Source of the DNA: Planctomycetota bacterium | GTDB lineage: Bacteria > Planctomycetota > GCA-002687715 | Direction: 5' to 3' | NCBI GenBank assembly: GCA_002683135.1 | Contig: NYSS01000005.1 | Span: forward strand, 35,473-99,472 | DNA: 64,000 nucleotides | In this document: positions 18,463-48,633 of the stretch, piece after piece | How the letters are laid out: every line of letters begins with the position of its first letter | Position numbering within the stretch: the first letter of the stretch is position 1 | Notes under the pieces: generated by a model | What the model saw: the letters and a program-made list of their open reading frames with translations, nothing else | Told to the model about the DNA's origin: nothing | Database searches by the model: none | Made by a program: the position numbers and the translations under genes

Positions 18463-19700
18463 GAAGAAGCTCCCGAAGGAACGCTGTCACCGTCCCCCCC
18501 TTGGGGCAGAGTCTGCGCCCCCCCACCCGGGGGGCTTGGGTTGGAGGCGGGGGCAGAGGTTGCCACGTCGGCGAGCGCCGACACAAGGACATCCACCTCC
18601 GACTCCCCGATGATCAACGGCGGCATCAGGCGCACCACGTTCGGGTCGCTGGCCCCTCCGGCGAGCACCCCTCGCTCCCGAAGCCACGGCAGGACTTCCG
18701 CCGCGGGACGATCGCAGACAAGCCCGACGAGCAGGCCGCGGCCCTGGACCGCGACCACTGGACCCGTGACGCACCGCGCTGCGATGGACTCCCCCACGGT
18801 CAGTACACGATCAAGGAACCCAGGGGCGCGCAAGCGCGCGACCACCTCGCGGACCATCGCGCATGCAAGCGGGCCGCCGCCAAACGTCGTGCCGAGGGCG
18901 CCCGGGGTCAGCGCGTCGGCGAGGTCGCTGCGCGCGATGACCGCGCCCGCGGGGAAACCGCCGGCGAGACCCTTGGCGGTGGTGATGATGTCAGGGACGA
19001 CGCCCGAGTCGTCGATCGCGAACATCGACCCGGTGCGACCCATCCCGCACTGCACCTCGTCGGAGATCAGCAGCGCGCCGCGACGCGACGACTCCGAACG
19101 CGCGACCTGCAAGACCTCTTGGCTCAGCGGTCGCGCGCCGGCGATGCCCTGCACCGGCTCAAGGATGACGGCGGCGACGTCGTCGTCGATGGCGGAACGA
19201 AGGGCGTCTCCGTCATCCGGCGCGACCCATGTCACGTCGAACGGGGCCCGGGGAAACGCATACCACTTCTGATTGCCGTGGGTGCAGGCTCCTGCGGCCG
19301 CCGTCCGGCCGTGAAAGCCGCCCTCGAGCGCGACGACCCGCGTTCGATCGGTCGCCCTGAACGCCAATCGCAACGCGTTCTCGTTCGCCTCGGCGCCAGA
19401 GTTGACCATGAAGACGCGGTCGAGCCCGGCTGGGGCGACCGACGCCAGATCCGCGTGTGCGAGACGACGCACCTCCATCTCGACAAGGTTGGTCTGGAAG
19501 TGGATGCGCTCCGCTTGCCCCTGCATGGCGGCGAGCAACCCAGGGTCGCCATAGCCCAGCGACGCAACCGCATGCCCACCGTAGAAGTCGATGAACTCGC
19601 GGCCGTCAGCGGTCCGGACCCGCACCCCGTCCCCATCCACGACGTCAAAGTCGAGGCGCTTGTAGACGGGAAATTCGTAGCCCGCGCTCATCATCCCCAC
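18459..19700 (-). CDS. argD: Acetylornithine aminotransferase (class III PLP aminotransferase) with a low-complexity C-terminal tail
   Basis: FIDFYGGHAVASLGYGDP, SGAEANENALRLA and ISDEVQCGMGRTG. An in-frame ATG at 19694 gives an ATGA overlap with the argC stop. Confidence 0.9.
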   Translation of the reverse strand: MGMMSAGYEFPVYKRLDFDVVDGDGVRVRTADGREFIDFYGGHAVASLGYGDPGLLAAMQGQAERIHFQTNLVEMEVRRLAHADLASVAPAGLDRVFMVNSGAEANENALRLAFRATDRTRVVALEGGFHGRTAAAGACTHGNQKWYAFPRAPFDVTWVAPDDGDALRSAIDDDVAAVILEPVQGIAGARPLSQEVLQVARSESSRRGALLISDEVQCGMGRTGSMFAIDDSGVVPDIITTAKGLAGGFPAGAVIARSDLADALTPGALGTTFGGGPLACAMVREVVARLRAPGFLDRVLTVGESIAARCVTGPVVAVQGRGLLVGLVCDRPAAEVLPWLRERGVLAGGASDPNVVRLMPPLIIGESEVDVLVSALADVATSAPASNPSPPGGGAQTLPQGGDGDSVPSGASS

Positions 19701-20749
19701 CCCAGGCCCGCGAGCTCCAGGCCCGAGGACTCGTCGAGATCACACAGGCGATTCATCCACTGGATCGCGCCGCCGGCGGCGCCCTTCACCAGGTTGTCGA
19801 TGACCGACATGACCACGGCCGACGTGCCCGTGGCCGCCACGCCAATCCGGCATCGGTTGGTCCCCACCACCTCCTTGAGCGCCGGGGGCGTCGCCGAAAC
19901 GCCGACGAACGGCGCGTCCGCGTAGAAGGCTGCGTAGGCGTCCGCCAGCGATGCCGTGTCCATCGGGTGCGCGAGGTCGACGTGAACCGTCGCGTGAATC
20001 CCGCGCGCAAACGGGCCCGAGTGGGGCACGAATCGAACCTCGGGGGCAGGCCCGCCCAGCCGGCCGAGCAGCATCTCCATCTCTGGCGCGTGCCGGTGAA
20101 TCAGCGGACGGTACGCCTTCAGGTTCCCGAAGCGCGACGGGTGATGGGTCGTCTCGCTCGGCTTGGCGCCACTCCCCGTGCTCCCCGTCACCGCGCTGAC
20201 CCGATACGGCGGCGAGGCGAGGCCGAGGGCCACCAAAGGCGCGCAGGCCAGCGTGACCGCCGTCGTGAAGCAACCCGGATGGGCCACGTGCTCCGACGGC
20301 GCCGACGGCTCGAGCTCCGGGATCGCGCACGAAAACGAAGGGCACCGCTCGGGGGCCCCATGCGACTCGCCGTAGACTTCCGTCCACGCCGCCGCGTCAG
20401 GCAACCGAAAGTCCGCAGAGAGGTCCACCACCTTCATGTTGGCGCGCGCCCCCTCCGCCGACGCCAGCAGCCCATCCAGGATTCGCGCCGCCTGGCCGTG
20501 TGGCAAGCAGGAGAACAGGGCGACCGGGCCATCGGTGTCGAGAAGCGCGTCGACAGCGTCTGCGGATACGAACGTCTCCGCCGGCCAAACGCCGGCGAGA
20601 TGAGGGAACGCCTCCGCTATGCGCGTCCCGGTCTTCGACCGGGAGACCGCCGCCCGCAGCCGCATCACGGGGTGCCCGGAGAGCAACCGCAGGAGCTCTC
20701 CGGCGACGTAACCTCCCGACCCGAGCACCACCACAGGGATCTCAGCCAT
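19691..20749 (-). CDS. argC: N-acetyl-gamma-glutamyl-phosphate reductase
   Basis: IPVVVLGSGGYVAGELLRLLSGHP, catalytic-Cys region HPGCFTTA. Start taken at MAEIP (ATG 20749). Confidence 0.9.
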   Translation of the reverse strand: MAEIPVVVLGSGGYVAGELLRLLSGHPVMRLRAAVSRSKTGTRIAEAFPHLAGVWPAETFVSADAVDALLDTDGPVALFSCLPHGQAARILDGLLASAEGARANMKVVDLSADFRLPDAAAWTEVYGESHGAPERCPSFSCAIPELEPSAPSEHVAHPGCFTTAVTLACAPLVALGLASPPYRVSAVTGSTGSGAKPSETTHHPSRFGNLKAYRPLIHRHAPEMEMLLGRLGGPAPEVRFVPHSGPFARGIHATVHVDLAHPMDTASLADAYAAFYADAPFVGVSATPPALKEVVGTNRCRIGVAATGTSAVVMSVIDNLVKGAAGGAIQWMNRLCDLDESSGLELAGLGWG

Positions 20750-21815
20750 CGGCCCTCTCCGCATCGCCACCTCTGCCCAGGCAACCCAGGACGTGCTCCG
20801 CAAGCTCCGCCGGACACGTCCGCGCGTTGAGCCCAGCGACGCCGATCTTCTCGCGGATCAAGTCCGTCCCGGCGACGTTGTCGGTCGCGGGTCCGGTGAT
20901 CGCCGCCGTCTCGATCCCGAAGCGGTCGACCAGCTGACGGTGGCCGCCCCAGGCTCCTACGGGATCATTCGCCGCCAGCACGACCGCCGTCAGCGCGTCT
21001 CGGATGTCGCTCGCCTCGAGGATCGCGTCAACCCCGTAGTCCCCCATCAGGCCATCCCCGAGCTCGAGGACAATCACGTCCGGCCGCGACGCGGAGAGCG
21101 CCGTCAGCATGGTGCGCGTCAGCGCGGGCGCGTTCGACCGCTGCGTCGTCACGATACCGAGGTCGGTGAAGACCATGGTCTCCCGCGCGCCCGCGTCCTC
21201 CATCGCGTGGACGTCGCGCCGCAAGCTGACACCGGTGGCCTTCGCCGCCGCGACCCTCAGCCGTGAACGAGCGAACTCCTGAATGAGGCTCGTGCACGCG
21301 AACGTCTTTCCGGAGTTCATGCACGTCCCGACCACCGCCACCACGGGGATGTCCCCCACGTCCAGCCGGTCGGTCAGCTCTCGCGCCCCCTGCCGGATGT
21401 TCGCGGGCACGCCAATGCGCTCGCCGAGATACGGGAAGTGCAGCACCTGGCCGAGCACTTCGCACTCAAACGGTGGCCCGATGTCCGGATTGCTGGAGGT
21501 GCAAACCCCCAGGCAGCCGCCGATGTTCAGCAAGTTCAGGACATCGCCCGGGGCAATCTGCTCCGGGATGTGCCCCGCGTATCCCATCAGGGCGCGCCGG
21601 TGCCCGAGCGCACCCGCGACGACGTCTCCAGGCTTCAGGTGGGAGAAGCGCCCCGTCGTGAGCTCGAGCTTGTTGTAGGTGGACTTGCGTGAAGTCACCC
21701 GCACCGCGATGACGTCACCTTCTTCGCACGGGAACGTCGACCCGAGCTTGACCTCGCGGGGCAAGTGGCAGTTCGAGGTCACGGAGGCGATCTTGTCGAC
21801 GACGACGGACTTCAT
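20742..21815 (-). CDS. Uncharacterised two-domain P-loop protein embedded in the arg operon
   Basis: The ATG at 21815 overlaps the argG stop (ATGA), and the stop overlaps the argC start by 8 nt. The N-terminal domain is beta-rich (EEGDVIAVRV, LKPGDVVAG, IAPGDVLNLL). The C-terminal half has VVGTCMNSGKTFACT (GTxxxxGKT) and DVIVLELGDGL. Confidence 0.75.
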   Translation of the reverse strand: MKSVVVDKIASVTSNCHLPREVKLGSTFPCEEGDVIAVRVTSRKSTYNKLELTTGRFSHLKPGDVVAGALGHRRALMGYAGHIPEQIAPGDVLNLLNIGGCLGVCTSSNPDIGPPFECEVLGQVLHFPYLGERIGVPANIRQGARELTDRLDVGDIPVVAVVGTCMNSGKTFACTSLIQEFARSRLRVAAAKATGVSLRRDVHAMEDAGARETMVFTDLGIVTTQRSNAPALTRTMLTALSASRPDVIVLELGDGLMGDYGVDAILEASDIRDALTAVVLAANDPVGAWGGHRQLVDRFGIETAAITGPATDNVAGTDLIREKIGVAGLNARTCPAELAEHVLGCLGRGGDAERADG

Positions 21816-23020
21816 TGCTGGCTCCGATCGCCGGCGCGGGCATGGAGTTGCCCCGGGATTCCAACGATGCGCGAGAACCCGGCGGCGTCGGCCGGGGTCC
21901 ACTCCCCAATCGCTTCGCCATAGAGGGCGGACGACGCGTCGCGCAACGACCATGGCGAGGTGACCCCGTCGACGAACACGCTGCCTGGGCGCAGCGTCAA
22001 CGTCACGTCCCCGGTGACGCGAGACTGGGACGACGACATCAGGGACTCGATATCCCTGCAGGTCGGCTCGAGGAACTGGCCCGCGTGCACGAGGTCGCCG
22101 TAGACGCGAGAGACGTGGTCCTTCACGGTCTGCTGCTGGGCCGTCAACACGAGCTTCTCAAGCTCGCGGTGAGCGGTGATGAGAACGGTCGCCGCCGGCG
22201 CCTCGAAGGCGACGCGGCCCTTGACCCCGAGCACGGTCTCGCCCAGGTGAATGCCGCGACCGATGCCGAACCCTGAGGCCAGCGCGTCGACGCGTTCGAT
22301 CGTATCGACGGCCGAGCCCGCCTCTCCGTCGACCGCGACCGGGACCCCGCGCTCGAACGAAATCACGTGACGCTCGGCTTCGCGAGGGTTCTCAAACGCG
22401 CCGCGGGTCCGGACCCACGCGTCCTCGGGCAGTGACTCCTTCGTGTCCAGGGTCTCGCGGCCCCCGATCGTGACGCCCCACAGCCCGCTGTTGATGGAAT
22501 ACGAGCCGGTAGAGTCCGCGATGGTGAAGCCCTGCTTTGCGAGAAACGCGATCTCATCCTCGCGGCTCGGGGCCAGATCCCGCACCGGGGCGATGATCTC
22601 GATCTCCGGAGCCGCGGTCCGGAGCGCCACCTCGAACCGCACCTGATCGTTGCCAGCCGCGGTGCATCCGTGGGCGACCGCCGAGACACCCAGCTCGTTG
22701 GCGATCCGGGCGACCTCGCGGGCCTGCAGGCTGCGCTCGGCGCCCACGCACAGGGGATAGAGCTGGCCGCGGAGGACGTTGCCCATCAACAAGAAGCGGA
22801 TCACCTCCTCGAAGAAGGTGTCGCGCGCGTCCACGTGCACGTGCCTCTTGGCGCCAAGCTGGGCGCTGCGCTCTTCGAGCGAGCGCAATTCGTCCGGGTC
22901 GATCCCGCCCACGTCGACGTTGACGGTGATGATCTCCGCGCCCAGCGTCTCTGCCAGATGGGGGATACACCAGCTGGTGTCGAGGCCGCCTGAGTACGCG
23001 AGCGCAATGGTGTCAGCCAT
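21812..23020 (-). CDS. argG: Argininosuccinate synthase
   Basis: IALAYSGGLDTS, GCTAAGNDQVRFE. Start at MADTIAL (ATG 23020), overlapping the argR stop by 8 nt. Confidence 0.9.
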   Translation of the reverse strand: MADTIALAYSGGLDTSWCIPHLAETLGAEIITVNVDVGGIDPDELRSLEERSAQLGAKRHVHVDARDTFFEEVIRFLLMGNVLRGQLYPLCVGAERSLQAREVARIANELGVSAVAHGCTAAGNDQVRFEVALRTAAPEIEIIAPVRDLAPSREDEIAFLAKQGFTIADSTGSYSINSGLWGVTIGGRETLDTKESLPEDAWVRTRGAFENPREAERHVISFERGVPVAVDGEAGSAVDTIERVDALASGFGIGRGIHLGETVLGVKGRVAFEAPAATVLITAHRELEKLVLTAQQQTVKDHVSRVYGDLVHAGQFLEPTCRDIESLMSSSQSRVTGDVTLTLRPGSVFVDGVTSPWSLRDASSALYGEAIGEWTPADAAGFSRIVGIPGQLHARAGDRSQQ

Positions 23021-23489
23021 CGTTGGATTCCCTTCCGACCAGCTCCCCGATCCGGCGCCGCAGTCCGGTCGCCGCACGCGGACCTCCCACTGCGACGAAC
23101 AAGGTGTCGTCGCCCGCGACCGTCCCGACGATCTCCGGCCAGGCCGCGCCGTCGATGATGCTGCCCACGCGAGACGCCGCGCCGATGACGGTGTGGAGGA
23201 CCACCAGGTTTGGCCCGGCGGACGAAATCCCGGTCACCGCATCACGCATGGTCTCTTGAAGCGCGGCGCCATTGGTGGGGCCGCCAGCGGGCGGGGTCAG
23301 GCGGTAAGCGCCGCCGACCTTGCTGATCGGCAAGCTCCGCAGGTCACGCGAGACCGAGGACTGGGTCACGCTCAGGCCGAGCTCCGTCAGCCGGCGGACC
23401 AGCTCCTCCTGGCTCCGGACAGAGTGCGCCGCGATGATGTTCCGAATCGCATCGAGGCGCTGTTCGCGTTGACGTGGATCGACTGGCAT
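23013..23489 (-). CDS. argR: Arginine repressor
   Basis: The N-terminal winged helix (RLDAIRNIIAAHSVRSQEELVRRLTELGLSVTQSSVSRDL) and C-terminal oligomerisation/arginine-binding domain (GTVAGDDTLFV) are typical of ArgR/AhrC. Confidence 0.85.
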   Translation of the reverse strand: MPVDPRQREQRLDAIRNIIAAHSVRSQEELVRRLTELGLSVTQSSVSRDLRSLPISKVGGAYRLTPPAGGPTNGAALQETMRDAVTGISSAGPNLVVLHTVIGAASRVGSIIDGAAWPEIVGTVAGDDTLFVAVGGPRAATGLRRRIGELVGRESNDG

Positions 23490-27829: not shown

Positions 27830-28786
27830 TCAGTCGCGCGCGATCTCGATGGCGAAGCCAGCCGGGTCCTTCACCACGAAGCGGCCCGCCTTTCTGTCCT
27901 CTTCGACGACAGCGTTCCCGATGCGACGAGCGCGGCGCAGACACAGGTCAAAGTCAGGCACGCGAAGCGTCGGCACGAGCCCCGGCCCGGGCGCCTCCGA
28001 CGAACCGTAGCCCCAGGCTTCTCTGGTGCGGCTGTCGAGAGCACCCGTGACGAGGAGCACCAGGCCGCCGAGGCAGATGGTGCCGCCGTTCTCCGGGTCG
28101 CGCGCCGCCGGCCGCCGCTTGAGAACGCGGGCCCAGAAATCAATGACCGCCCCGGGCTCGGAGCACGCGAGGCGCAGGGTTGTCACGTTGATGGGCTTGC
28201 CCCCGTCGCGTTCGACCCCCGCGCGAGCGACCGGTGCAGCCCCCGCGGCTGGGGCCGGCGCGGTCTGCGCCACCTTTGCTTGAGCGCGAGCCCGCGACTT
28301 GTTGGTCGACACCGCCCCGGCCTCCATGCCGCCGCCCAGCGTCCGGCGCGTCTCCTCGACCAAGGGCACGAGGTCAGGAGTACGGGCTCCGTTCAGGACG
28401 CAGGTCACCGTGTCCCCTGCGCCATCCTTGCCAGCGAGCAACGCCTCGTAGAGGTCGCGGAGACGATCGAGGGCATCTTGAGTCTCCTTGTTGAATCCGA
28501 GACGTCGGCGGTCTGGGTTGGGCCCAACGAATCGGTATTCCGCCGTCTTGTGGTGCGCCCGCAGCGAGAAGATGGAGACCATCTTGTCTCCGAGTGGCCC
28601 CTCGAACTGAAGGGCCATCCCATACTTGCCGCGCGTCGCCCGAAGACCCACGCGCGGATGCTGCAGCCAGTTGGCAACGCATTGGCGCACGAGCCGGGCA
28701 AACCGCGCGCGGTCGAGGGGGTCAAGGCCGGCCACTGAGACCGCCTCCTCTTCCTCGAGGAACCGTTCGGCGACTGTGTCGTCCAC
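27830..28786 (-). CDS. Protein with unknown N-terminal domain and C-terminal glyoxalase/VOC-fold domain
   Basis: The C-terminus (VIDFWARVL...GGLVLLV...VPDFDLCLRRARRIGNAVVEEDRKAGRFVVKDPAGFAIEIA) is typical of the VOC fold. Its stop abuts the convergent stop at 27829. Confidence 0.6.
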   Translation of the reverse strand: MDDTVAERFLEEEEAVSVAGLDPLDRARFARLVRQCVANWLQHPRVGLRATRGKYGMALQFEGPLGDKMVSIFSLRAHHKTAEYRFVGPNPDRRRLGFNKETQDALDRLRDLYEALLAGKDGAGDTVTCVLNGARTPDLVPLVEETRRTLGGGMEAGAVSTNKSRARAQAKVAQTAPAPAAGAAPVARAGVERDGGKPINVTTLRLACSEPGAVIDFWARVLKRRPAARDPENGGTICLGGLVLLVTGALDSRTREAWGYGSSEAPGPGLVPTLRVPDFDLCLRRARRIGNAVVEEDRKAGRFVVKDPAGFAIEIARD

Positions 28787-29040
28787 AGGATCCGCATCGT
28801 GACCCCCACCAGGAGCGCGGTCAAGATGCCGCTCGATCGTGGCAACCCCAAACGTCTTACCCTCTATCGGGTGGGATGTTGCATTCTGTGGTTACGGGGT
28901 CTACATTACTCGCGGCTTGCCCGGCCCAGTGGCTCGAAGGTCTAACGCAGAACCGACTTAGCGTTGGGACCGCCGCCCATCGTTGCGATTGCTCACGGTG
29001 CTCCCGTTCCAGGGAGGGGCACGCTGCGGGGAGGGACGCA

Positions 29041-32000
29041 TTGGGGCAAGGGAAGAGGTATCTCTTCACTGGGGGCGGTACCGGGGGACATGTCACCCCC
29101 AATCTCGCCATCATCTCTGAGATCAAGGGCACCTCGCGCGACGCCTCCTTCCTCTACGTCGGCAACGCCCATGGGTACGAAACCCGTGTGCAGGAGGAAG
29201 GGGTCCCGTTCCTGGCGATCCCATGCGCGCCGTTCTGCTCACCTCGTCGGCCCTGGCGCTTCGCGATCATGACCGCGCGCATTATGTGCGGGGTCCTCCG
29301 CGCGATGTGGATCATGGCACGCTTCAGGCCCCACGTCGTGATCGCAAGCGGCGGCTACGTATCCGTTCCTTGCGTTATCGGCGCGTGGATCATGCGCCGA
29401 CGCATCTACGTACACGAGCAAAACGTCCACCCAGGCCGCGCAAATCGCGCGCTCGCGCATCTCGCAACTCGGGTCGGCGTCGCCTTCAAGGAGACGCTCG
29501 AGTTCTTCCCGGCCGAGAAGACCGACCTCCGCGGTTACCCGGTGCGGCGCCAGATCGGCGAGGGGTCACCCGACCGCGCGCGCGAACGATTCAACATTCC
29601 GCAGGACCGCAGGGTCGCGTTCATCGTCGGGGGCAGCATGGGGTCGCGCGCCATCAACCGCGGCACCGTGGAGGCTCTGCACACGCTCCTACGCAAAGAC
29701 GACATCGCCGTCATCCACGCAACGGGCTTGTCCACGTCCGGTGAATATCGGGCCTACGACGATACGCGCGAGCGCCTCGAGCACGCCGGGCTAGGCACGA
29801 CGCTCCCGGGCCGCTACGTCTGCAAGCCGTTCTTCAACAACATCCAGGACGTCTATGCGATCGCGGACCTCGTCGTGGCCCGCGCCGGCGCGGGCACGAT
29901 CATGGAGCTCGCCACCGTAGGCAAGCCGAGCCTCCTGATCCCGAAGAGCGACGTCCCCGGTGATCATCAGTTGATGAACGCTGTGTCGCGGCAGCGCGCG
30001 GGCTCCGCACAGGTGCTGTTCGAAGAGCGTGGCGAGGAGGCCGGCCGCGCCATCACCCGTGTCCGTGGCGACGCGCTCGCCAACATGATCACCCAGCTCA
30101 TGGGTGATGAGGCCGATCTCGGACAGATGGGGCGGCGCGCGGCGCGCGGCGCCGTCGGGGACGCGCTCGGGCTGCACGTCGAGATCGTGTGCCGTCTCGC
30201 CGACGACGAATCGCTCATCCAGCGGGTCAAGGAGGTCGACCGCGTGGGACTGCTCATCGACGAAGCGGGGCAGACGCACGAGCTCCTCTTCCGCAACAAC
30301 ATCGTCGGCACGGGGCTGCTCCCCGACATCCGCGTGAAGGACCCGGAGGGCGGCCGCTCCGCACGCGCCGTCATCATCCGCACGCGCCACGGCGACGGCT
30401 TTGAATTTCATGTGCTGCGTCGCGCCGGCACCGTCGAGGTCGGAGCCAAGCCCGTCGACGGTCGTGTGAAACTGCACCCAGAGGACGTGATCACCATCGG
30501 TGGGCGGCGCTTCACCTTCATGCTCCGAGAGCGTGAGGTCGAGCGGCCCGCCGCGACCGCGGGCATGTCGATGCGTGTCGCGGTCACCGCCCTCGGAACC
30601 CTCGTCTCCCGCGGATTCGGGTTCGTGCGCGAGGCCGTCATGGGCGCGATCTTCGGCCTCGGCAACACGATGGACCTCATGTCCATCGCCCTGCAGGTCT
30701 CCAACTACTTCCGCGGGGTGTTCGCCGAACAGGCCGTCGACTCCGCGTTCCTCCCCACCTTCGTGCACCTGCAGCGAACAGGTCGCACCTCCGAGGCAAA
30801 CCGCCTGTTCTCTTCGGTGTTGGCCCTGACCCTGATCGGCAGCGGCGCCGTCACCGTCGCCGCCATCCTCACGCTGCCAGCCTGGCTCCCGCACATCGCC
30901 CCGGGCTTCGTTGAGCGCGGCATCATTGACGACGCCGTGCTGCTGACGCAGATCATGTTCCCGTACCTGGTGCTGATCTCGCTCGCGGCCGTGGTCGCCG
31001 CCGTGCTGAAGGCCTGCAACCGGTTCGCGGTGCCCGCGTTCTCTTCGATCATGTTCTCCGTCGGTGTCCTCATCGGGGTCGCCCTCTACCCAATAATGGG
31101 ATTACCCGCCCTCGGGGTCGGCGTCCTCCTCGGCGGGGCCGGCCAGCTGGCGGTGCTGCTGCCATCATTGTTTTCCAGTGACGTGCGGCGCGGGTTCGGC
31201 GTTCAGCTTCGGCCGCGCATCGACCTCAAGGCGCAGGGGGTACGCAAGGTCGGCCGCGTCACCCCGAACATCCTCGCGGACGTCTCCGTGCAGCGCGCGG
31301 GCACCATGGTCGACACCGTCCTCGCCACCTCCCTCGCCGCAGGCATGGTGTCGGCTCTGCATTTCGCGATGGTGGTCTTCATGCTCCCCTTTGGGCTGAT
31401 CTCCGTCTCGATCAACAGCGTGGTCTTAAAGGAGCTCAGCGAAGGCCAGGCGCTCCGTGACCGAGACGACACCCGCCGGCTCCTCGCCGGAGGCATCAAC
31501 TGGACGGTGTTCGCCCTGCTCCCGATCACCGTGGTCCTTCTCGCCCTCGCAGACCCGATCGTCAGCCTGCTCTTCCAGTGGATGAGCTTCGACTCGGTCG
31601 CCGCCTCCAATGTCGCGATCGCGCTGCGGTGCTACGCCATCGGCCTCGCGGCCTGGGGCCTCACGGGGCTGTGCGGACGGTTCTTCGCCGCCCGCATGGA
31701 GCAGAGCAAGAACACCATCACCAGCCTCGTCGCGCTGGCCGTCAACGTCGCCGTCTCCATCGCACTCGTCAAGCAGGGCATGGGCGTCGCCGGGCTCGCC
31801 CTCGGGACAACCGCGGCCTTCGTCCTGTGCGCCGCGATGCGCCTCTGGATGCTGAACGCCAGCCTGCGATCCGAAGGCGTCGCCCTGAAGGCCTCCGACG
31901 TCATGCCCAGCATCGTCAGGACCGGGCTGGCGACCGCTGCCGCGTTACTGGTCATGCTGGTCGTTCACATGGCCGTTCGCGACTTCGACGCCTTGCCGCT

Positions 32001-32934
32001 GGCGTTGAATCGGTTCTTCGTCTTGTCCGTGCCCCTCTGCTTCGGCTTCTCCGCCTACTGCGCGGCGAGCCTCTTGTTGCGGTCGGAGCAGATCGACGAA
32101 GTGCTGATTAAGCTCGGCCGCTATGGCCGCAGCGACGCCGAGGCCCCGCACGAGCCGCGCCCGGTGAACCCCTACTGCATGGACCCGCCCCAGCGCCTCC
32201 TCTCCTGGGTCAAGGCCAACCCGAAGCTGGCATCCGAATACAACTTCACGCGACGCGCCACGACGTTCCTCAACCACAAGGACTGGAGGGTCGGCAACGT
32301 CGGCATCAAGCTCGTGGGCGAGCTGCGCATTCCGTCCTTCCGTTACGACCTCGCCGAGATCGCGACCTGCCGCGAGCCCGCCACCTTCATGCAGCGCCTG
32401 TTCGGCGGGGACTTCGTCAAGCCTGGCTTCCTTCGGCGCAACGCGATCGTCGCGCTGGCCCGCCTGGGTGAGCCGGACGAGCGCGTCTCGGGCTGCCTGC
32501 TGATGGCGCTCGATGACCCCTATTTCGAGGTCCGCTCCGAAGCCGCGCGCGTGCTCGGGCAGTTCGCGGAATCGCTCGGAAGCGAGCAGAGACAAGACGC
32601 CGCTGCGGGGCTCAAGAGGCTCGTCAAGGACAAGAACTTCGAGGTCGCCGCCGAAGCCGTCACCGCGCTCGGCCATCTCGTCGTTGACGACTCCGTCGTC
32701 GAGGTCTTGAAGAGCCTGCACTATCACCGCAACTGGCAGGTTCGCGATCGCGTGGTTCAGGCATACCGCCGGCTGTTCGTGCGACGCGTCCTCACGGACA
32801 GGCACCGGATTCTGGCGCTCCTCGACGACGTGCTCGCCACGTCGGAGGGCTTCGTCCCGCGGTTCCTCCTCAAGGAGCACATGACCGAGCTACAGGCCCG
32901 CCTCCTGCGGGACGACCAGGAGCCAGGCCGATGA
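29041..32934 (+). CDS. murG-murJ: Fusion protein: MurG (lipid II synthase) - FHA domain - MurJ/MviN (lipid II flippase) - HEAT repeats
   Basis: MurG: GKRYLFTGGGTGGHVTPNLAI, ASGGYVSVP, IVGGSMGSRAIN, ARAGAGTIMELA..GDHQ. FHA (~30235-30525): ARAVIIRTRHGDGFEFHVL..ITIGGRRFTF. MurJ (~30560-32100): LGTLVSRGFGFVREAVMGAIFG and about 14 hydrophobic segments. HEAT (~32270-32800): DDPYFEVRSEAARVLG, KDKNFEVAAEAVTALG. The start is uncertain: the TTG at 29041 has a GGAGG 6 nt upstream, while the ATG at 28876 adds a C/R-rich, non-protein-like leader. Confidence 0.8.
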   Translation: MGQGKRYLFTGGGTGGHVTPNLAIISEIKGTSRDASFLYVGNAHGYETRVQEEGVPFLAIPCAPFCSPRRPWRFAIMTARIMCGVLRAMWIMARFRPHVVIASGGYVSVPCVIGAWIMRRRIYVHEQNVHPGRANRALAHLATRVGVAFKETLEFFPAEKTDLRGYPVRRQIGEGSPDRARERFNIPQDRRVAFIVGGSMGSRAINRGTVEALHTLLRKDDIAVIHATGLSTSGEYRAYDDTRERLEHAGLGTTLPGRYVCKPFFNNIQDVYAIADLVVARAGAGTIMELATVGKPSLLIPKSDVPGDHQLMNAVSRQRAGSAQVLFEERGEEAGRAITRVRGDALANMITQLMGDEADLGQMGRRAARGAVGDALGLHVEIVCRLADDESLIQRVKEVDRVGLLIDEAGQTHELLFRNNIVGTGLLPDIRVKDPEGGRSARAVIIRTRHGDGFEFHVLRRAGTVEVGAKPVDGRVKLHPEDVITIGGRRFTFMLREREVERPAATAGMSMRVAVTALGTLVSRGFGFVREAVMGAIFGLGNTMDLMSIALQVSNYFRGVFAEQAVDSAFLPTFVHLQRTGRTSEANRLFSSVLALTLIGSGAVTVAAILTLPAWLPHIAPGFVERGIIDDAVLLTQIMFPYLVLISLAAVVAAVLKACNRFAVPAFSSIMFSVGVLIGVALYPIMGLPALGVGVLLGGAGQLAVLLPSLFSSDVRRGFGVQLRPRIDLKAQGVRKVGRVTPNILADVSVQRAGTMVDTVLATSLAAGMVSALHFAMVVFMLPFGLISVSINSVVLKELSEGQALRDRDDTRRLLAGGINWTVFALLPITVVLLALADPIVSLLFQWMSFDSVAASNVAIALRCYAIGLAAWGLTGLCGRFFAARMEQSKNTITSLVALAVNVAVSIALVKQGMGVAGLALGTTAAFVLCAAMRLWMLNASLRSEGVALKASDVMPSIVRTGLATAAALLVMLVVHMAVRDFDALPLALNRFFVLSVPLCFGFSAYCAASLLLRSEQIDEVLIKLGRYGRSDAEAPHEPRPVNPYCMDPPQRLLSWVKANPKLASEYNFTRRATTFLNHKDWRVGNVGIKLVGELRIPSFRYDLAEIATCREPATFMQRLFGGDFVKPGFLRRNAIVALARLGEPDERVSGCLLMALDDPYFEVRSEAARVLGQFAESLGSEQRQDAAAGLKRLVKDKNFEVAAEAVTALGHLVVDDSVVEVLKSLHYHRNWQVRDRVVQAYRRLFVRRVLTDRHRILALLDDVLATSEGFVPRFLLKEHMTELQARLLRDDQEPGR

Positions 32935-34085
32935 TCGACATGCTCTACCTGGCCTTCAAGAGCTCCTGGGGGCTCGACGAGACGCCGCTCCGCCTCGTCC
33001 ACTACACGACCACGCGTATGGTCCTGGCCTTCCTGACGGCTTTCGCGATCACCTATGCCATCAGCCCCCGCGTGATCAAGGCGCTCTACAAGCGCAGCAT
33101 GCGCGACCAGGTTCGGGACTACGGCAAGGAGTTCAGCCAGACCAAGTCCGGCACGCCCACGATGGGCGGCTTGATCATCATCGCGGGGATCCTCACGGCC
33201 GCCGCGCTGTGGTGCAATCCACGAAAGACCGGCTCGGCGGCCGGGATGTCGGACCTCGCGAGCGCGATCCCCCTGTTATTCATGACCCTGCTCTTCTTCG
33301 GCGGGGTGGGCGCCGTCGACGACTACCTGAAGGTCAAGCGCGGCGGCGCCGACTCCGGCCTCTCGCGCCGGATGAAGCTGTTGCTCCAGGGCGGGTTCGC
33401 CAGCCTGTTCGCCGTCCTGGTGCTAAGCGAGGGGTCGTCACCCTTCCCGGACGGCGTCCGCGACCAACTCTACCTACCCGGGTTGCCCCCCAAGATTATC
33501 CCGCCGCCCGAGCTCGGCGCCCTGTACTTCGGCTTGATCGTGATCGCCTTCCTGTGCATCTCCAACGCGATTAACTTCGCGGACGGCCTCGACGGGCTCG
33601 CCATCGTCCCGTCGGGGATGACCGCCCTGGTCTGCGGGGTCTTCGCCTACTTCTTCAGCCACGCGACACTGGCCTCCGCAACGCAGCTCGCCCACCTGGA
33701 GGGGATGACCGAGGTCGCGGTTTTCGCGGCCGCGTTCCTCGGCGCGGCCGTCGGCTTCCTGTGGTTCAACTCCTACCCAGCGCAGGTGTTCATGGGCGAC
33801 ACCGGCTCGATGGCGATCGGGGGCACGCTCGCGGCGCTTTGCGTCGTAACCAAGACGGAGCTGCTGTTCTTGATCGCGGGTGGGATCTTCGTCTACGAAT
33901 TCCTGTCGGTGTTCATCCAAGACGTGATCGGCATTCGGCGCATCGGCAAGCGCCTGCTCCTTCGCGCACCCGCGCACCATGCGTTCCAGTACCAGGGCGT
34001 CGCCGAAACGAAGGTGGTCCTCCGGTTCTGGATCGTATCGTTCCTGCTGGCCGTGCTGAGCCTCGCGACCCTGAAGCTGCGGTAG
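32931..34085 (+). CDS. mraY: Phospho-N-acetylmuramoyl-pentapeptide transferase
   Basis: TKSGTPTMGGLIII, NAINFADGLDGLA, FMGDTGSMAIGG. The ATG overlaps the upstream stop (ATGA). Confidence 0.9.
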   Translation: MIDMLYLAFKSSWGLDETPLRLVHYTTTRMVLAFLTAFAITYAISPRVIKALYKRSMRDQVRDYGKEFSQTKSGTPTMGGLIIIAGILTAAALWCNPRKTGSAAGMSDLASAIPLLFMTLLFFGGVGAVDDYLKVKRGGADSGLSRRMKLLLQGGFASLFAVLVLSEGSSPFPDGVRDQLYLPGLPPKIIPPPELGALYFGLIVIAFLCISNAINFADGLDGLAIVPSGMTALVCGVFAYFFSHATLASATQLAHLEGMTEVAVFAAAFLGAAVGFLWFNSYPAQVFMGDTGSMAIGGTLAALCVVTKTELLFLIAGGIFVYEFLSVFIQDVIGIRRIGKRLLLRAPAHHAFQYQGVAETKVVLRFWIVSFLLAVLSLATLKLR

Positions 34086-34116
34086 GGCGGCGCCGGCCCC
34101 ATGCCCCGCTGGGTCT

Positions 34117-34437
34117 CTATCCCTTGGCCTCCTCCCGCGCGAACCACTCCTGGATCTCGTCGGATAGGGCATCAGAAGCGCTCTCCCGCTCCCGTGCTCT
34201 CCTGACCCGGGCCGCCCGTCGCCTCACGCATGCGAACGCGCCGCGCCACATGCGGGCGGGAGTCCTGGCGAACGCTCGCGCCGTCCTCAGCCCAAAGAAC
34301 GCGTCGACGATGAACAGGCCGCCAAAGAGCACCCCCGCAATCGCGAGCAAGGGGACCGCCCCGGAGGGCTCGCGAGTAAACGCGCCCTGCCCCACCGAGA
34401 CGGTGGGCAGGAGAAGAACAACAACGAGATGGCGCAT
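34117..34437 (-). CDS. Small membrane protein, hypothetical
   Basis: 106-aa ORF with an N-terminal signal-like segment, a second TM (LLAIAGVLFGGLFIV) and a basic tail. No clear Shine-Dalgarno sequence. Lies 38 nt downstream of truD. Confidence 0.35.
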   Translation of the reverse strand: MRHLVVVLLLPTVSVGQGAFTREPSGAVPLLAIAGVLFGGLFIVDAFFGLRTARAFARTPARMWRGAFACVRRRAARVRRARERESASDALSDEIQEWFAREEAKG

Positions 34438-34475
34438 GGGTCGAGGGGATAGAGGATACCACCGGCCAACCCGAA

Positions 34476-35696
34476 TCAGCCGTCGCGGATCCCGAGCAGG
34501 GCAAACACCGAGGTCGCGAAGCTGCCCGCGGGGAGCGAAAACGAAAAGACGAGCGTCTCGGCGTCCTCGCCGCGTACATGGGGATCGACGATTCGAACAC
34601 GGAGCGGCCGACGCGCTCCGCGAAACGTACCCCGAGGCAAGGTCTCGGCGGTCGTCGGCACCCCCAGCCGCTCAAGAACGGGCCGCTCGAGCGCGGCCGC
34701 ATCGTCCGTCGGGGACGGCGCCTCGCGGCCGGGCAACGGGCCGGTGGCGGAGATCTCGAGGCGCTGCGCACGAGGGAGCTCCGCCGCCAGATCCGTCACC
34801 GAAAAGGGCCGGCCGCGCGGCAGCCGCAACGCCAGGTCGCCGAGGACCAGGGGGCGTGCGTCCTCCAATCGAGCAACGAGCACCTCGTTGAAGCACGCCG
34901 ATTGCCAGGCAGAAATGAGAAAATCCCGCGGCCGCCGTGGCAGCGTGCGCAGCGCCCGCTCGCGGTCGTCGCGACCACGTAGGACCTGGGCGAGATGACG
35001 CTCGATTTCGAAATCGCGAGGGAATGCGCGCACCGCCTGCGCCCACTGTTCATTCGCGAGCGCCTCGCGACCCTCCGACACGCGCGCGTTCTCTCCCTCG
35101 ACCGGCTCGGAGAGCACCCGCAAGAGCGCGTCGGGGTCGCCACGAATAATCGCGTCACCGGCCAGGTGGTTCCGCCCGAAGGTCCCGAAGCGTTGCGGAC
35201 CGAAGCCGTTGGGCACCCCAGATCGGACGATCTTGTCAATCCAGGGCGCCACCTCCTCAGCGGGGCGCGTCGCGCCGCGCACCCGGACCTCAAACCGGTT
35301 CCCCCACAGGTGACCAGTCTTCAGCTTGTTCCTGTGTCGCCGTGCTTCGAGGATGCGCCACCCGTCGCCTTCAAGTCCCTCCAGGTCGTCCCGCGCACGC
35401 ACGGTGAGCCACTGGCGCGCGACGGCGCGGCGATCCTTGTACCCAGCCCAGCCGATCTCTCGAGGTCGGGCGTCGAGCGCCGCCGCCAGGTGGCGGACCA
35501 AGGCCGGTGTCGTGATCTCTCGCTTCTCCACGAGGATCATGGACCACTCGCCTTCCCCGGACGCCGGGTACAGCGGGATTTCCTCGACGACAAAGTCCTC
35601 TGGCCGCTCGCGCAAGCGGCCACCGACCGGGAGGACAAGGTCCGGAGGGACCGGGGGATTCGCTGGGTCAAAACTCACGAACGGGCATCCTGACAT
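34476..35696 (-). CDS. truD: tRNA pseudouridine(13) synthase
   Basis: PEDFVVEEIP, GYKDRRAVARQWLTV, HRNKLKTGHLWGNRFEVRVRG, VPNGFGPQRFG. Confidence 0.85.
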   Translation of the reverse strand: MSGCPFVSFDPANPPVPPDLVLPVGGRLRERPEDFVVEEIPLYPASGEGEWSMILVEKREITTPALVRHLAAALDARPREIGWAGYKDRRAVARQWLTVRARDDLEGLEGDGWRILEARRHRNKLKTGHLWGNRFEVRVRGATRPAEEVAPWIDKIVRSGVPNGFGPQRFGTFGRNHLAGDAIIRGDPDALLRVLSEPVEGENARVSEGREALANEQWAQAVRAFPRDFEIERHLAQVLRGRDDRERALRTLPRRPRDFLISAWQSACFNEVLVARLEDARPLVLGDLALRLPRGRPFSVTDLAAELPRAQRLEISATGPLPGREAPSPTDDAAALERPVLERLGVPTTAETLPRGTFRGARRPLRVRIVDPHVRGEDAETLVFSFSLPAGSFATSVFALLGIRDG

Positions 35697-42959: not shown

Positions 42960-43241
42960 CTGTCGCAACCCGGAGCCTGGCGACCCCAGGCCCCCGTAAT
43001 TATACGGACCGGAGCGCACCCAGGCGGCCACGGTTGCCCCTGTGTGTCCACGAGGGTGACTCGGTGTGCCCCAGCGAGGTCAGATGTGCTGCGCACCGAA
43101 GTGGGGGCCGCCGCCCAGCGGGGGGGGCATAAGCCATGGCATCAGAACCGCTTACATCCCGATGCCCCATGCCCCCACGAACTTCGGCACGGCGGTTGCC
43201 ATATAGAACGGCGCCCACGCGGAAAGCCCAGGAGCCGAGCC

Positions 43242-48587: not shown

Positions 48588-48633
48588 ATGAGGCAACGGG
48601 GTAACCCCCGCGGCCACCCCGCCACGCGCAGCG

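What the first reader, a model, noticed from the sequence alone, without database searches (positions are those of the whole stretch)
29041..32934. One ~1,300-aa polypeptide fuses MurG, an FHA domain, MurJ and HEAT repeats, and is translationally coupled to MraY
Seen: a single uninterrupted frame carries four modules.
- A complete MurG-like domain (~29041-30150; GGGTGGHVTPNLAI, IVGGSMGSRAIN, ARAGAGTIMELA).
- An FHA-like module (~30235-30525).
- A MurJ/MviN domain of about 14 TM segments (~30560-32100).
- HEAT-like repeats (~32270-32800).
Its stop overlaps the mraY start (ATGA at 32931-32934).

Established: MraY makes lipid I, MurG converts it to lipid II, and MurJ flips lipid II. In Mycobacterium tuberculosis the MurJ homologue MviN is controlled by phospho-threonine-dependent binding of a separate FHA protein (FhaA).

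Inference: lipid II synthesis and export appear covalently coupled here, with a phospho-Thr reader built in cis. That would imply Ser/Thr-kinase control and possible substrate channelling. The topology is consistent: MurG, FHA and HEAT are cytoplasmic, and MurJ has both termini inside. I do not know of a described MurG-MurJ fusion.
Basis: partly seen in the sequence, partly recalled or inferred. Interest (0 to 1): 0.78.

Follow-up and report, generated by a model that had tools for sequence, protein, structure and literature searches.

The report
Fused lipid II synthase-flippase gene with mraY
One 1,297-residue protein joins the enzyme that finishes the cell-wall precursor lipid II (MurG) to the transporter that flips it across the membrane (MurJ), and its gene overlaps the gene for the preceding enzyme (MraY); this layout recurs in many bacterial phyla, but I found no paper that describes it.

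Summary
Window 29041-32934 (+) is one uninterrupted gene for 1,297 aa. In order it encodes a complete MurG, an FHA-fold domain, a 14-TM MurJ and a roughly 250-aa HEAT solenoid. Its stop overlaps the mraY start (ATGA).

It is not an assembly artefact. More than 100 independent protein clusters, 97% to 29% identical, share the architecture. Named sources include Planctomycetota, Aminicenantes/Acidobacteriota and Candidatus Lernaella.

- The linker is an FHA fold: AlphaFold2 pLDDT 90, and all top-50 Foldseek hits are FHA domains.
- The canonical phosphothreonine-binding residues are absent across the family, so a built-in pThr reader is unlikely.

The wider pattern is new relative to the finding. 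A MurG-HEAT core always sits directly upstream of mraY (35 of 35 loci, often with a 4-nt overlap) and outside the dcw cluster. MurJ is inserted between MurG and HEAT, added N-terminally, or absent. Nothing else in the neighbourhood is conserved.

Best reading: a lipid II assembly-and-export module. The HEAT domain is probably a docking scaffold, possibly for MraY; that step is inferred.

No paper in the searched library describes a MurG-MurJ fusion. I rate it a new variant of a known kind, with interest about 0.63.

The parts
29030..29043 (+). Shine-Dalgarno GGAGG (29030-34) and TTG start codon (29041-43) of the fusion gene
   Evidence: Sequence read. The start gives 1,297 aa, matching the length of the 97%-identical homologue P0001.
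29041..30195 (+). MurG module (GT28 lipid II synthase), aa 1 to about 385
   Evidence: Pfam PF03033 at aa 8-146 and PF04101 at aa 193-329. phmmer hits to P. aeruginosa and E. coli MurG structures 3s2u and 1f0k at 1e-29 and 1e-28. GGTGGH, HEQN, GGS, R281, E289, H309-Q310 and N313 are kept in 59-60 of 60 relatives.
30223..30549 (+). FHA-fold domain lacking the canonical pThr-binding residues, aa 395-503
   Evidence: Profile against PDB sequences hits only FHA domains. AF2 model pLDDT 90, all-beta. The top 50 Foldseek hits are all FHA domains. The signature residues are not conserved. Pfam FHA is negative for the window; 10 of 44 relatives weakly match Yop-YscD_cpl.
30577..32106 (+). MurJ module (MOP-family lipid II flippase, 14 TM), aa 513-1022
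   Evidence: TIGR01695 scores 283.5 bits against a cutoff of 235.55. Pfam MurJ 4e-78. Aligns to E. coli MurJ residues 8-500. The hydropathy profile is compatible with 14 segments. R524, R530, D545, R558 and E563 correspond to E. coli R18, R24, D39, R52 and E57; V778 sits at the R270 position.
32188..32919 (+). C-terminal HEAT-like alpha-solenoid, aa about 1050-1293. It is the module shared by all architectures of the family.
   Evidence: Pfam HEAT_2 1.5e-10. AF2 model pLDDT 94.4 with 15 helices. Foldseek best matches are alphaRep, HEAT and armadillo repeat proteins. It is conserved in MurG-HEAT, MurJ-MurG-HEAT and MurG-(FHA)-MurJ-HEAT proteins.
32931..34085 (+). mraY (lipid I synthase). Its ATG overlaps the fusion's TGA (ATGA at 32931-34), with AGGAG eight nt upstream.
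   Evidence: TIGR00445 scores 261.7 bits against a cutoff of 192.05. Sequence read. phmmer hits to MraY structures at 4e-63. The same adjacency holds in 35 of 35 related loci.

Best explanation
The gene encodes a real multi-domain enzyme of the membrane steps of peptidoglycan precursor synthesis.

**Proposed mechanism.**
- MraY is translated from the overlapping downstream gene and makes lipid I.
- The N-terminal MurG module adds GlcNAc to give lipid II on the cytoplasmic face.
- The MurJ module, tethered about ten residues after the FHA-fold domain, flips lipid II outward.
- Fusion fixes MurG and MurJ at 1:1 and keeps the lipid II product next to the transporter. This is proximity coupling in the plane of the membrane, not a sealed channel.

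**Accessory modules.**
- The C-terminal HEAT solenoid is the family's defining accessory module. It most likely acts as a protein-docking scaffold.
- Its only conserved genomic partner is mraY, so MraY is the most likely binding partner.
- The FHA-fold domain is an optional, degenerate connector or regulatory module at the mouth of MurJ. It is not a canonical phosphothreonine reader.

**Shown:** domain identities, the FHA and HEAT folds, residue conservation, and the distribution and synteny.

**Inferred:** enzymatic activities, proximity coupling, HEAT-MraY docking, and the role of the FHA-fold domain.
For: **Domain identities.** These rest on curated HMMs and solved-structure homologues.

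**Functional residues.**
- Every MurG residue I recall as invariant from E. coli mutagenesis is kept in 59-60 of 60 relatives.
- The MurJ equivalents of R18, R24, D39, R52 and E57 are kept in 56-60 of 60.

**Recurrence.** Of the 120 best clusters:
- 100 are MurG-FHA-MurJ-HEAT.
- 4 are MurG-MurJ-HEAT.
- 5 are MurJ-MurG-HEAT.
- 8 are MurG-HEAT.

Both gene orders of MurG and MurJ occur. Window MurJ is only 26-28% identical to the MurJ of the permuted form, which suggests repeated selection for linkage.

**Synteny.**
- mraY directly follows the HEAT-bearing gene in 35 of 35 loci with enough sequence. The gap is at most about 41 nt, and in about half it is an ATGA-type 4-nt overlap.
- These loci are labelled as at least eight phyla.
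- Plain murG loci show the usual rsmH-ftsI-murE/F-mraY-murD-ftsW-murG order.
- An all-against-all comparison of flanking ORFs finds no other widely conserved neighbour.

**MraY divergence.**
- The 35 HEAT-linked MraY proteins form one pure clade in a quick NJ tree. They are 48% identical to each other and 34% identical to canonical MraY.
- They differ from canonical MraY in several motifs: an RD pair after the first hydrophobic segment, and HH[A/S/T] plus QDxIGI near the C-terminus. From my memory of the MraY structure, these lie on the cytoplasmic side.

**HEAT fold.** The HEAT domain models confidently as a solenoid.
Against: - No activity or interaction was tested.
- MurG scores below the NCBIfam equivalog cutoff: 192.6 against 250.25.
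- The E. coli R270 position in MurJ is Val here and is variable in the family.
  - A 2026 preprint reports that S. aureus MurJ builds the cationic triad from non-aligned residues. The R270 difference is therefore not disqualifying.
- HEAT-MraY docking rests only on conserved gene adjacency. That adjacency could reflect a need for co-expression alone.
- The MraY clade could partly reflect species phylogeny, because the canonical comparison set is dominated by other phyla and the tree has no support values.
- I could not check whether these genomes also carry stand-alone murG or murJ. None lies in the 64-kb window or within 10 kb in related loci.
Confidence: 0.72

Rival explanations
1. The FHA domain is a cis-acting phosphothreonine reader that puts lipid II export under Ser/Thr-kinase control, analogous to FhaA binding phosphorylated MviN in mycobacteria.
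For: - The domain has an FHA fold, and structural neighbours include FhaA itself (3po8, 3poa, 3oun).
- FhaA-MviN regulation is established in mycobacteria (Gee et al. 2012, as summarised in PMC11898655).
- The apical loops stay basic: K or R in 76 of 104 at one loop position and R in 51 of 104 at the His position. A non-canonical phosphate contact is therefore not excluded.
Against: - The Arg, Ser, His and Asn that define pThr binding are kept in only 8, 11, 3 and 0 of 104 family members. None is present in the window protein.
- Pfam FHA does not match. The best weak family match is Yop-YscD_cpl, which I recall as the phospho-independent YscD FHA-like family.
- The domain is absent in four clusters and truncated in P0093, P0094, P0096 and P0099.
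- There is no pseudokinase domain. No kinase was seen nearby, and no kinase is conserved in related loci.
Confidence: 0.13
2. The fusion exists only to balance expression or stabilise the partners, as argued for Mur chimeras of non-consecutive steps. There is no substrate hand-off advantage and no HEAT-MraY contact.
For: - Published Mur chimeras include pairs of non-sequential enzymes (MurG-MurC, MurC-Ddl, MurD-FtsW). For these, stability or stoichiometry is the favoured explanation (PMC10214165).
- Translational coupling by ATGA overlap is itself a stoichiometry device.
Against: - Here the fused and coupled enzymes are three consecutive steps.
- Two different domain orders were fixed.
- A dedicated, conserved 250-aa solenoid is retained in all forms.
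- The linked MraY is a distinct clade with changed motifs.
- This rival overlaps with the best explanation rather than excluding it.
Confidence: 0.25
3. The module serves a polyprenyl-linked glycan other than peptidoglycan. It would be a paralogous set of a MurG-like GT28, a MOP flippase and an MraY-like transferase.
For: - MurG is below its equivalog cutoff.
- The locus lies outside any dcw cluster.
- The MraY HHH motif is HHA.
- The MurJ R270 position is not Arg.
Against: - MurJ and MraY both exceed curated equivalog cutoffs.
- All MurG substrate-binding and catalytic residues are kept.
- MraY aligns end to end with solved MraY structures at 4e-63.
- No second, canonical set was seen in any locus examined.
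Confidence: 0.08
4. Assembly or frameshift artefact, or a pseudogene, joining separate genes.
For: None found. This was the default caution for a single window.
Against: - More than 100 independent clusters from ENA, NCBI, JGI and Logan assemblies carry the same uninterrupted architecture, at 29-97% identity.
- The inter-domain junctions align across them.
- Codon-position GC is coding-like throughout.
Confidence: 0.01

Closest known systems
Stand-alone MurG (E. coli 1F0K, P. aeruginosa 3S2U) and MurJ (E. coli 6CC4, T. africanus 5T77)
   Same: - Same folds and families.
- The MurG G-loop, HEQN, GGS, Arg/Glu and (Q/H)Q...N motifs are present.
- MurJ has the same 14-TM layout and the equivalents of R18, R24, D39, R52 and E57.
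   Different: - Here they form one polypeptide, with an FHA-fold insert and a C-terminal HEAT solenoid.
- The R270 position is Val.
- The MurG equivalog score is below its cutoff.
- The locus is outside the dcw cluster.
Catalogued Mur chimeras: MurE-MurF, MurC-Ddl, MurC-MurB, MurG-MurC, MurD-FtsW and MraY-MurG (Shirakawa et al. 2023, PMC10214165)
   Same: Natural fusions of peptidoglycan-precursor enzymes. They are taken as evidence for pathway complexes. MraY-MurG and MurD-FtsW show that membrane-step enzymes can be fused.
   Different: - MurG-MurJ is not among the listed types.
- That survey excluded chimeras from unidentified species. Every MurJ-containing fusion whose source was named in my searches was labelled a MAG.
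- This one also carries two non-enzymatic modules and is coupled to a third enzyme gene.
Mycobacterial MviN(MurJ)-pseudokinase / FhaA system (Gee et al. 2012; structure 3OUN)
   Same: An FHA-fold domain is physically associated with a MurJ-family flippase. FhaA's FHA domain is among the closest structural matches.
   Different: - There the FHA is a separate protein that binds a phosphorylated pseudokinase domain C-terminal to MviN.
- Here the FHA fold is in cis and N-terminal to MurJ. It lacks the pThr-binding residues, and there is no pseudokinase domain.
Phospho-independent FHA-like domains (T3SS YscD cytoplasmic domain, Pfam PF16697; EssC/YukB N-terminal domains; kinesin-3 FHA)
   Same: - An FHA fold attached just before a membrane segment or motor.
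- Weak Pfam matches to Yop-YscD_cpl in 10 of 44 relatives.
- YukB and KIF1A appear among the profile hits.
- From my own knowledge, these domains lack the canonical pThr residues.
   Different: Unrelated machineries. Sequence similarity is marginal (best E-value 4e-5). No function has been shown for the domain studied here.
MurG-HEAT two-domain proteins, for example Desulfacinum hydrothermale WP_170920467.1, annotated 'glycosyltransferase'
   Same: Same MurG and the same C-terminal solenoid, 25-43% identical. mraY lies immediately downstream, as seen in MAGs labelled Gemmatimonadota, Latescibacterota, Myxococcota and Calditrichaeota.
   Different: No MurJ and no FHA. P0116 has a hydrophobic N-terminal stretch instead. 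Like the fusion, these proteins did not appear in the literature I searched.

Membership tests
MurG (GT28 lipid II synthase; PF03033 + PF04101; TIGR01133) | Both GT28 half-domains detected above Pfam gathering scores | tested here: met
   88.4 bits against 26.2 and 78.5 bits against 22.
MurG (GT28 lipid II synthase; PF03033 + PF04101; TIGR01133) | Score above the NCBIfam equivalog cutoff | tested here: not met
   TIGR01133 scores 192.6 bits against a cutoff of 250.25, and the match stops at model position 310 of 353.
MurG (GT28 lipid II synthase; PF03033 + PF04101; TIGR01133) | Invariant catalytic and substrate residues: GGTGGH loop, Y105, HEQN, N134, GGS, N198, R260, E268, Q288/Q289, N291 (E. 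coli numbering recalled from the mutagenesis literature) | tested here: met
   All are present in the window protein and in 58-60 of 60 relatives. Q288 is His, as in P. aeruginosa MurG.
MurG (GT28 lipid II synthase; PF03033 + PF04101; TIGR01133) | Transfers GlcNAc from UDP-GlcNAc to lipid I | not testable with these tools
   Needs an enzyme assay or complementation.
MurJ (MOP-family lipid II flippase; PF03023; TIGR01695) | Score above curated cutoffs | tested here: met
   TIGR01695 scores 283.5 against 235.55, and Pfam scores 263.4 against 27.4.
MurJ (MOP-family lipid II flippase; PF03023; TIGR01695) | 14 TM helices with both termini cytoplasmic | tested here: met
   Aligns across E. coli MurJ residues 8-500. 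The hydropathy profile is compatible with 14 segments. The orientation is inferred from homology.
MurJ (MOP-family lipid II flippase; PF03023; TIGR01695) | Cationic cavity residues (E. coli R18, R24, R52, R270) plus D39 | tested here: inconclusive
   R18, R24, R52, D39 and E57 are kept in 56-60 of 60 relatives. The R270 position is Val778 in the window, and Arg sits at +3 in 25 of 60 relatives. S. aureus MurJ also relocates triad members.
MurJ (MOP-family lipid II flippase; PF03023; TIGR01695) | Lipid II flipping activity | not testable with these tools
   Needs a colicin M-type flippase assay or complementation.
FHA domain (PF00498; phosphothreonine-binding module) | Match to the Pfam FHA model | tested here: not met
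   The window protein gives no hit even at E-value up to 10 on the isolated linker. Of 44 relatives, 3 match FHA weakly (best 0.0025) and 10 match Yop-YscD_cpl (best 4e-5).
FHA domain (PF00498; phosphothreonine-binding module) | FHA beta-sandwich fold | tested here: met
   AF2 pLDDT 90. The top 50 Foldseek PDB hits are all FHA domains, with target-normalised TM up to 0.8. Profile hits to EmbR, Ki-67 and FhaA.
FHA domain (PF00498; phosphothreonine-binding module) | Conserved pThr-contact residues: Arg of the GR motif, Ser and His of SxxH, Asn of NG | tested here: not met
   They are kept in 8, 11, 3 and 0 of 104 family domains. The window has T, R, R and G at these positions.
HEAT repeat / alpha-solenoid | Pfam HEAT match and a helical-repeat fold | tested here: met
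   HEAT_2 scores 41.6 against 27.7. AF2 pLDDT 94.4 with 15 helices. Foldseek returns alphaRep, HEAT and ARM proteins at about 1e-4.
MraY (TIGR00445), downstream gene | Equivalog score and catalytic motifs (DDxxK, NxxNxxDGxDGL, HHH) | tested here: met
   261.7 bits against 192.05. VDDYLK and NAINFADGLDGL are present. The HHH motif reads HHA here and HH[A/S/T] in most other HEAT-linked MraY proteins examined.
Published Mur chimera types (PMC10214165) | Listed as a known fusion type | tested here: not met
   The listed types are MurE-MurF, MurC-Ddl, MurC-MurB, MurG-MurC, MurD-FtsW and MraY-MurG. There is no MurG-MurJ. Phrase searches found nothing.
Mycobacterial MviN-FhaA regulatory system | A phosphorylated pseudokinase domain on the flippase, bound by a canonical FHA | tested here: not met
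   No kinase-like domain in the protein. The FHA lacks pThr residues.

The most novel reading that the evidence does not exclude
Many non-model phyla organise the three membrane steps of lipid II production as a dedicated physical assembly line, separate from the dcw cluster. In this reading:
- The conserved HEAT solenoid on MurG docks a co-evolved MraY.
- MurJ is covalently attached in either order, so that lipid I, lipid II and flipped lipid II are handed on within one complex.
- The degenerate FHA fold sits at the TM1/TM8 portal of MurJ as a gate or membrane-facing adaptor.

If true, this would be a natural 'Rosetta stone' that ties MurJ directly to MurG's product.
Probability: 0.3. Interest if true: 0.82.

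Novelty: new variant of a known kind. Interest (0 to 1): 0.63.

Why it matters
- **Evidence for MurJ's role.** A natural MurG-MurJ fusion, fixed in both domain orders and always coupled to mraY, is independent evolutionary evidence that MurJ acts directly on MurG's product. This bears on the long debate between MurJ and SEDS proteins as the lipid II flippase.
- **A single-chain target.** It offers one chain for cryo-EM or biochemistry of the lipid II hand-off. That step cannot easily be trapped with separate proteins.
- **An uncharacterised accessory domain.** The HEAT solenoid marks a large family: 588 representatives at E-value 1e-30 or better, a count that also includes unrelated giant multi-HEAT proteins.
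- **A practical warning.**
  - NCBI names for these proteins were 'MurJ' or 'glycosyltransferase' wherever a name was given. Some JGI names mention both enzymes.
  - One recent PVC survey states that fused genes escaped its coverage-thresholded ortholog detection (PMC12283558).
  - Presence/absence surveys of murG and murJ may therefore miscount lineages that carry the fusion.

Tried and rejected
- **Pfam scan for FHA.** Negative on the whole protein and on the isolated linker. I did not take this as absence of the fold, because the profile and structure searches were positive.
- **Promoter and terminator scan of 28700-34600.** No promoter-like site, and only weak terminator-like hits inside genes. 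Uninformative.
- **Insertions specific to HEAT-linked MraY.** The apparent 6- and 12-residue insertions turned out to be deletions in the Firmicutes and Chloroflexi comparison sequences. Only point motifs (RD, HH[AST], QDxIGI) remain as group-specific.
- **Short proteins (200-500 aa) from the HEAT-profile search.** I considered them as possible stand-alone HEAT proteins. The six I read are contig-end or internal-start fragments of the fusions.
- **Other conserved neighbours (kinase, phosphatase, SEDS, PBP, Mur ligases).** None recurs beyond single lineages.
- **Second murG or murJ in the same genomes.** This could not be done.
- **Foldseek on the HEAT model.** It gave only generic designed-repeat and importin-like matches, with no functional lead.
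- **Artefact hypothesis.** Rejected.

Full report
**1. What is in the sequence**

The + strand frame is open from 28594 to the stop at 32932-32934. The upstream part of that frame overlaps a minus-strand glyoxalase-like gene (27830-28786).

The realistic start is TTG 29041, six bases after a GGAGG at 29030-34. It gives 1,297 aa, exactly the length called for the 97%-identical protein P0001 from an independent assembly. Third-position GC is 0.84, as in the other genes of this 66-69% GC window.

The stop overlaps the ATG of the next gene (ATGA at 32931-34), with AGGAG eight bases upstream. That gene passes the curated MraY equivalog threshold and aligns end to end with solved MraY structures.

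The flanks are unrelated: a glyoxalase-like gene upstream and TruD convergent downstream. The pair is therefore a two-gene unit, not part of a dcw cluster. Nothing else in the 64 kb resembles murG, murJ, ftsW, murD or ftsI.

**2. The four modules**

- **MurG.** Both GT28 halves are found by Pfam. E. coli and P. aeruginosa MurG structures are hit at about 1e-28.
- **MurJ.** It exceeds both Pfam and NCBIfam cutoffs and aligns over residues 8-500 of E. coli MurJ. A hydropathy profile is compatible with 14 membrane segments.
- **HEAT.** Pfam sees HEAT repeats only at aa 1154-1242. The conserved C-terminal block is about 250 aa. An AlphaFold2 model of aa 1036-1297 is a confident 15-helix solenoid (pLDDT 94.4). 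Its structural neighbours are generic alphaRep, HEAT and armadillo proteins.
- **FHA.** This was the weakest part of the finding.
  - Pfam reports no FHA, even for the isolated linker.
  - A profile built from the linker of 44 relatives (alignment A2) was searched against PDB sequences. It returned FHA domains as its best hits: EmbR 5e-6, Ki-67 2e-5, then kinesin-3 FHAs, Slr1951, YukB, FhaA/Rv0020c and Dun1.
  - The AlphaFold2 model of aa 385-510 is an all-beta domain with pLDDT 90.
  - All 50 best Foldseek matches in the PDB are FHA domains, including FhaA alone and in complex with MviN.

**3. Is the FHA fold a phosphothreonine reader?**

I aligned 104 family domains with the EmbR and Ki-67 FHA domains and read the columns of the EmbR pThr-contact residues.

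| EmbR position | Kept in family | Most common family residue | Window residue |
|---|---|---|---|
| R312 | Arg in 8/104 | Asn | Thr |
| S326 | Ser in 11/104 | variable | Arg |
| H329 | His in 3/104 | Arg (51) | Arg |
| N348 | Asn in 0/104 | Gly (100) | Gly |

- Structural positions are kept: the Gly before R312 in 82 of 104, and the Asp five residues later in 97 of 104.
- Among relatives, 10 of 44 weakly match Yop-YscD_cpl and 3 of 44 weakly match FHA. From my own knowledge, Yop-YscD_cpl is the phospho-independent YscD FHA-like family.
- Four clusters have MurG-MurJ-HEAT with no FHA module. P0093, P0094, P0096 and P0099 carry a copy missing its central strands.
- The apical loops remain basic, so binding to some anionic ligand is not excluded.
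- The domain ends about ten residues before TM1 of MurJ.

Canonical pThr recognition is not supported. The claim of Ser/Thr-kinase control has no other evidence. No kinase was seen among the annotated ORFs of the window, and none is conserved in related loci.

**4. Are the enzymes intact?**

- **MurG.** In an alignment of 60 full-length relatives (A1), every MurG residue I recall as invariant and functionally important in E. coli is kept in 58-60 of 60 sequences and in the window protein. These are T15, H18, Y105, H124, E125, N127, N134, S191, N198, R260, E268, Q289 and N291. The numbering is from memory of the mutagenesis literature.
- **MurJ.** The equivalents of E. coli R18, R24, D39, R52 and E57 are kept in 56-60 of 60.
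- **The exception is R270.**
  - The aligned residue is Val778 in the window and is variable in the family.
  - An Arg sits three residues later in 25 of 60 relatives, but not in this protein.
  - A 2026 preprint on S. aureus MurJ reports that its cationic triad (K22-R176-K302) uses a residue that does not align with the E. coli one (10.64898/2026.06.21.733627).
  - I therefore treat the R270 difference as an open point, not a disqualification.
- **MurG equivalog score.** MurG falls short of the NCBIfam equivalog score, 192.6 against 250.25. The match stops at model position 310 of 353, and the sequence is divergent.

**5. Distribution and the real unit of conservation**

A search of 5.8 billion clustered proteins returned more than 110 clusters with MurG, MurJ and HEAT in one chain. 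Identity ranges from 97% down to 29%, and the clusters come from ENA, NCBI, JGI and Logan assemblies. This excludes an assembly artefact.

| Architecture | Clusters |
|---|---|
| MurG-FHA-MurJ-HEAT | 100 |
| Truncated versions of the above | 3 |
| MurG-MurJ-HEAT | 4 |
| MurJ-MurG-HEAT | 5 |
| MurG-HEAT | 8 |

- A scan of one genome per species found the full fusion in MAGs labelled Planctomycetota and Aminicenantes. The nearest is an 'uncultured Isosphaeraceae' MAG at 71% identity.
- The permuted MurJ-MurG-HEAT form occurs in MAGs labelled Myxococcota, Fermentibacteria, Acidobacteria, Thermoanaerobaculia and Aminicenantes, among others.
- MurG-HEAT alone occurs in Gemmatimonadota, Latescibacterota, Myxococcota and Calditrichaeota. 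One cluster belongs to Desulfacinum hydrothermale (WP_170920467.1, 'glycosyltransferase'), the only non-MAG source named.
- In every one of the 35 loci with enough sequence, mraY follows the HEAT-bearing gene on the same strand within about 41 nt. In about half of them, including the window, the overlap is the 4-nt ATGA type.
- Loci with plain murG show the classical rsmH-ftsI-murE/F-mraY-murD-ftsW-murG order instead.
- An all-against-all comparison of flanking ORFs across 41 loci finds only two widely conserved families, the fusion and MraY. The next two clusters are antisense shadow ORFs, and everything else is lineage-specific.
- A profile of the HEAT domain searched against 1.84 billion representatives gave 588 hits at E-value 1e-30 or better.
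  - Single-stretch matches fall into proteins of 650-780 aa, proteins of 1,190-1,330 aa, and fragments.
  - Very large multi-HEAT proteins also score, by summed repeats, and are not relatives.
  - The six short hits I read are fragments of fusions.

**6. MraY linked to the module**

- The 35 HEAT-linked MraY proteins form a single pure clade in a quick neighbour-joining tree against 25 dcw-type MraY. Mean identity is 48% within the group and 34% between groups.
- They share point differences from the canonical set:
  - RD instead of G-Q after the first hydrophobic segment.
  - HH[A/S/T] instead of HHH near the C-terminus.
  - Q-D-x-IGI instead of Q-V-x-YFK.
- From my memory of the MraY structure, these positions lie in cytoplasmic loops.
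- This fits co-evolution with a cytoplasmic partner but does not prove it. The tree has no support values, and the comparison set is taxonomically skewed. It does include Bacteroidota (Rhodothermales, Saprospiraceae) and Nitrospinota.

**7. How it most likely works**

- MraY, MurG and MurJ catalyse consecutive steps (established knowledge): lipid I synthesis, lipid II synthesis and lipid II flipping.
- Both termini of MurJ are cytoplasmic, so MurG can be attached at either end, and both arrangements exist.
- The window's MurJ is only 26-28% identical to the MurJ of the permuted form. Its MurG is 34-43% identical. This suggests MurJ was joined to a MurG-HEAT core more than once (inference).
- The simplest reading is selection for physical proximity and fixed stoichiometry of the three steps.
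- The HEAT solenoid would be the protein-binding element. MraY is its most likely partner, because mraY is the only conserved neighbour.
- I put about 0.72 on a functional fused lipid II synthase-flippase expressed with MraY. I put about 0.3-0.4 on the specific HEAT-MraY docking.

**8. Comparison with what is known**

- The 2023 survey of Mur chimeras lists MurE-MurF, MurC-Ddl, MurC-MurB, MurG-MurC, MurD-FtsW and MraY-MurG, but not MurG-MurJ (PMC10214165).
- Phrase and keyword searches of about 8.3 million papers and preprints found no description of such a fusion or of a MurG-HEAT protein.
- The sequences themselves are public. Where a name was given, it was 'MurJ', MurG, both (some JGI entries) or 'glycosyltransferase'.
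- The mycobacterial MviN-FhaA system is the closest regulatory analogue but differs in every defining feature.
- The parts are known kinds. The combination and its conserved coupling to mraY are an undescribed variant.

**9. Limits**

- No activity, interaction or phosphorylation was tested.
- I could not determine whether carriers of the fusion also have stand-alone murG, murJ or mraY.
- The orientation of domains within the protein cannot be read from the tool outputs.
- Taxon labels of MAGs are as deposited.

Noticed in passing
window 48000-54000 and 62174-63646: Cumulative GC skew reaches its minimum near 50-52 kb, in a stretch of lower GC (0.60-0.62). dnaA lies at 62174-63646. The chromosomal replication origin is probably inside this window.
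   Followed up: no
window 56330-59779: Three consecutive + strand genes match BshC (Rossmann-like plus coiled coil), a PIG-L deacetylase (BshB-like) and a GT4 glycosyltransferase (BshA-like). This looks like a bacillithiol-type thiol biosynthesis cluster in a genome whose nearest named relative is labelled Planctomycetota.
   Followed up: no
window 14242-23489 (minus strand): An arginine biosynthesis cluster with its ArgR repressor. It includes argininosuccinate lyase and synthase, an OTCase, an acetylornithine aminotransferase-like gene, a semialdehyde dehydrogenase and an M20 peptidase.
   Followed up: no
window 32931-34085; loci L002-L050 (mraY): MraY proteins encoded after HEAT-bearing murG genes carry HH[A/S/T] instead of the canonical HHH motif. 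They also have QDxIGI instead of QVxYFK, and an RD pair after the first hydrophobic segment. They cluster together across phyla.
   Followed up: partly
P0116 (Desulfacinum hydrothermale WP_170920467.1); loci L011, L017-L038: MurG-HEAT proteins without MurJ (about 650-780 aa) occur in MAGs labelled Gemmatimonadota, Latescibacterota, Myxococcota and Calditrichaeota, and in D. hydrothermale. P0116 begins with a hydrophobic stretch, a likely membrane anchor that canonical MurG lacks.
   Followed up: partly
L043 (Candidatus Sumerlaeota MAG) 11059-12689: About 1.6 kb lies between the MurG and HEAT matches, with no tblastn hit to the window's MurJ. It may be a very divergent MurJ or a different insert. 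A Mur ligase gene follows mraY here, unlike in other loci.
   Followed up: no
proteins P0121, P0122, P0127, P0187, P0249 (2,900-7,100 aa): Giant proteins with 17-35 HEAT-like stretches score at the top of the HEAT-profile search. They are repeat-summed matches, not relatives of the module, but they are strikingly large.
   Followed up: no
window 42369-43031 (minus strand): A 220-aa HNH endonuclease gene stands alone between housekeeping genes. The adjacent stretch at 43964-45334 encodes a 456-aa protein with no Pfam match.
   Followed up: no
window aa 752 of the fusion (nt about 31294): A basic residue at the cytoplasmic start of MurJ TM7 is K or R in 52 of 60 relatives. E. coli has Gln at this position. 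It could substitute for the missing R270-position arginine in the cationic site.
   Followed up: no
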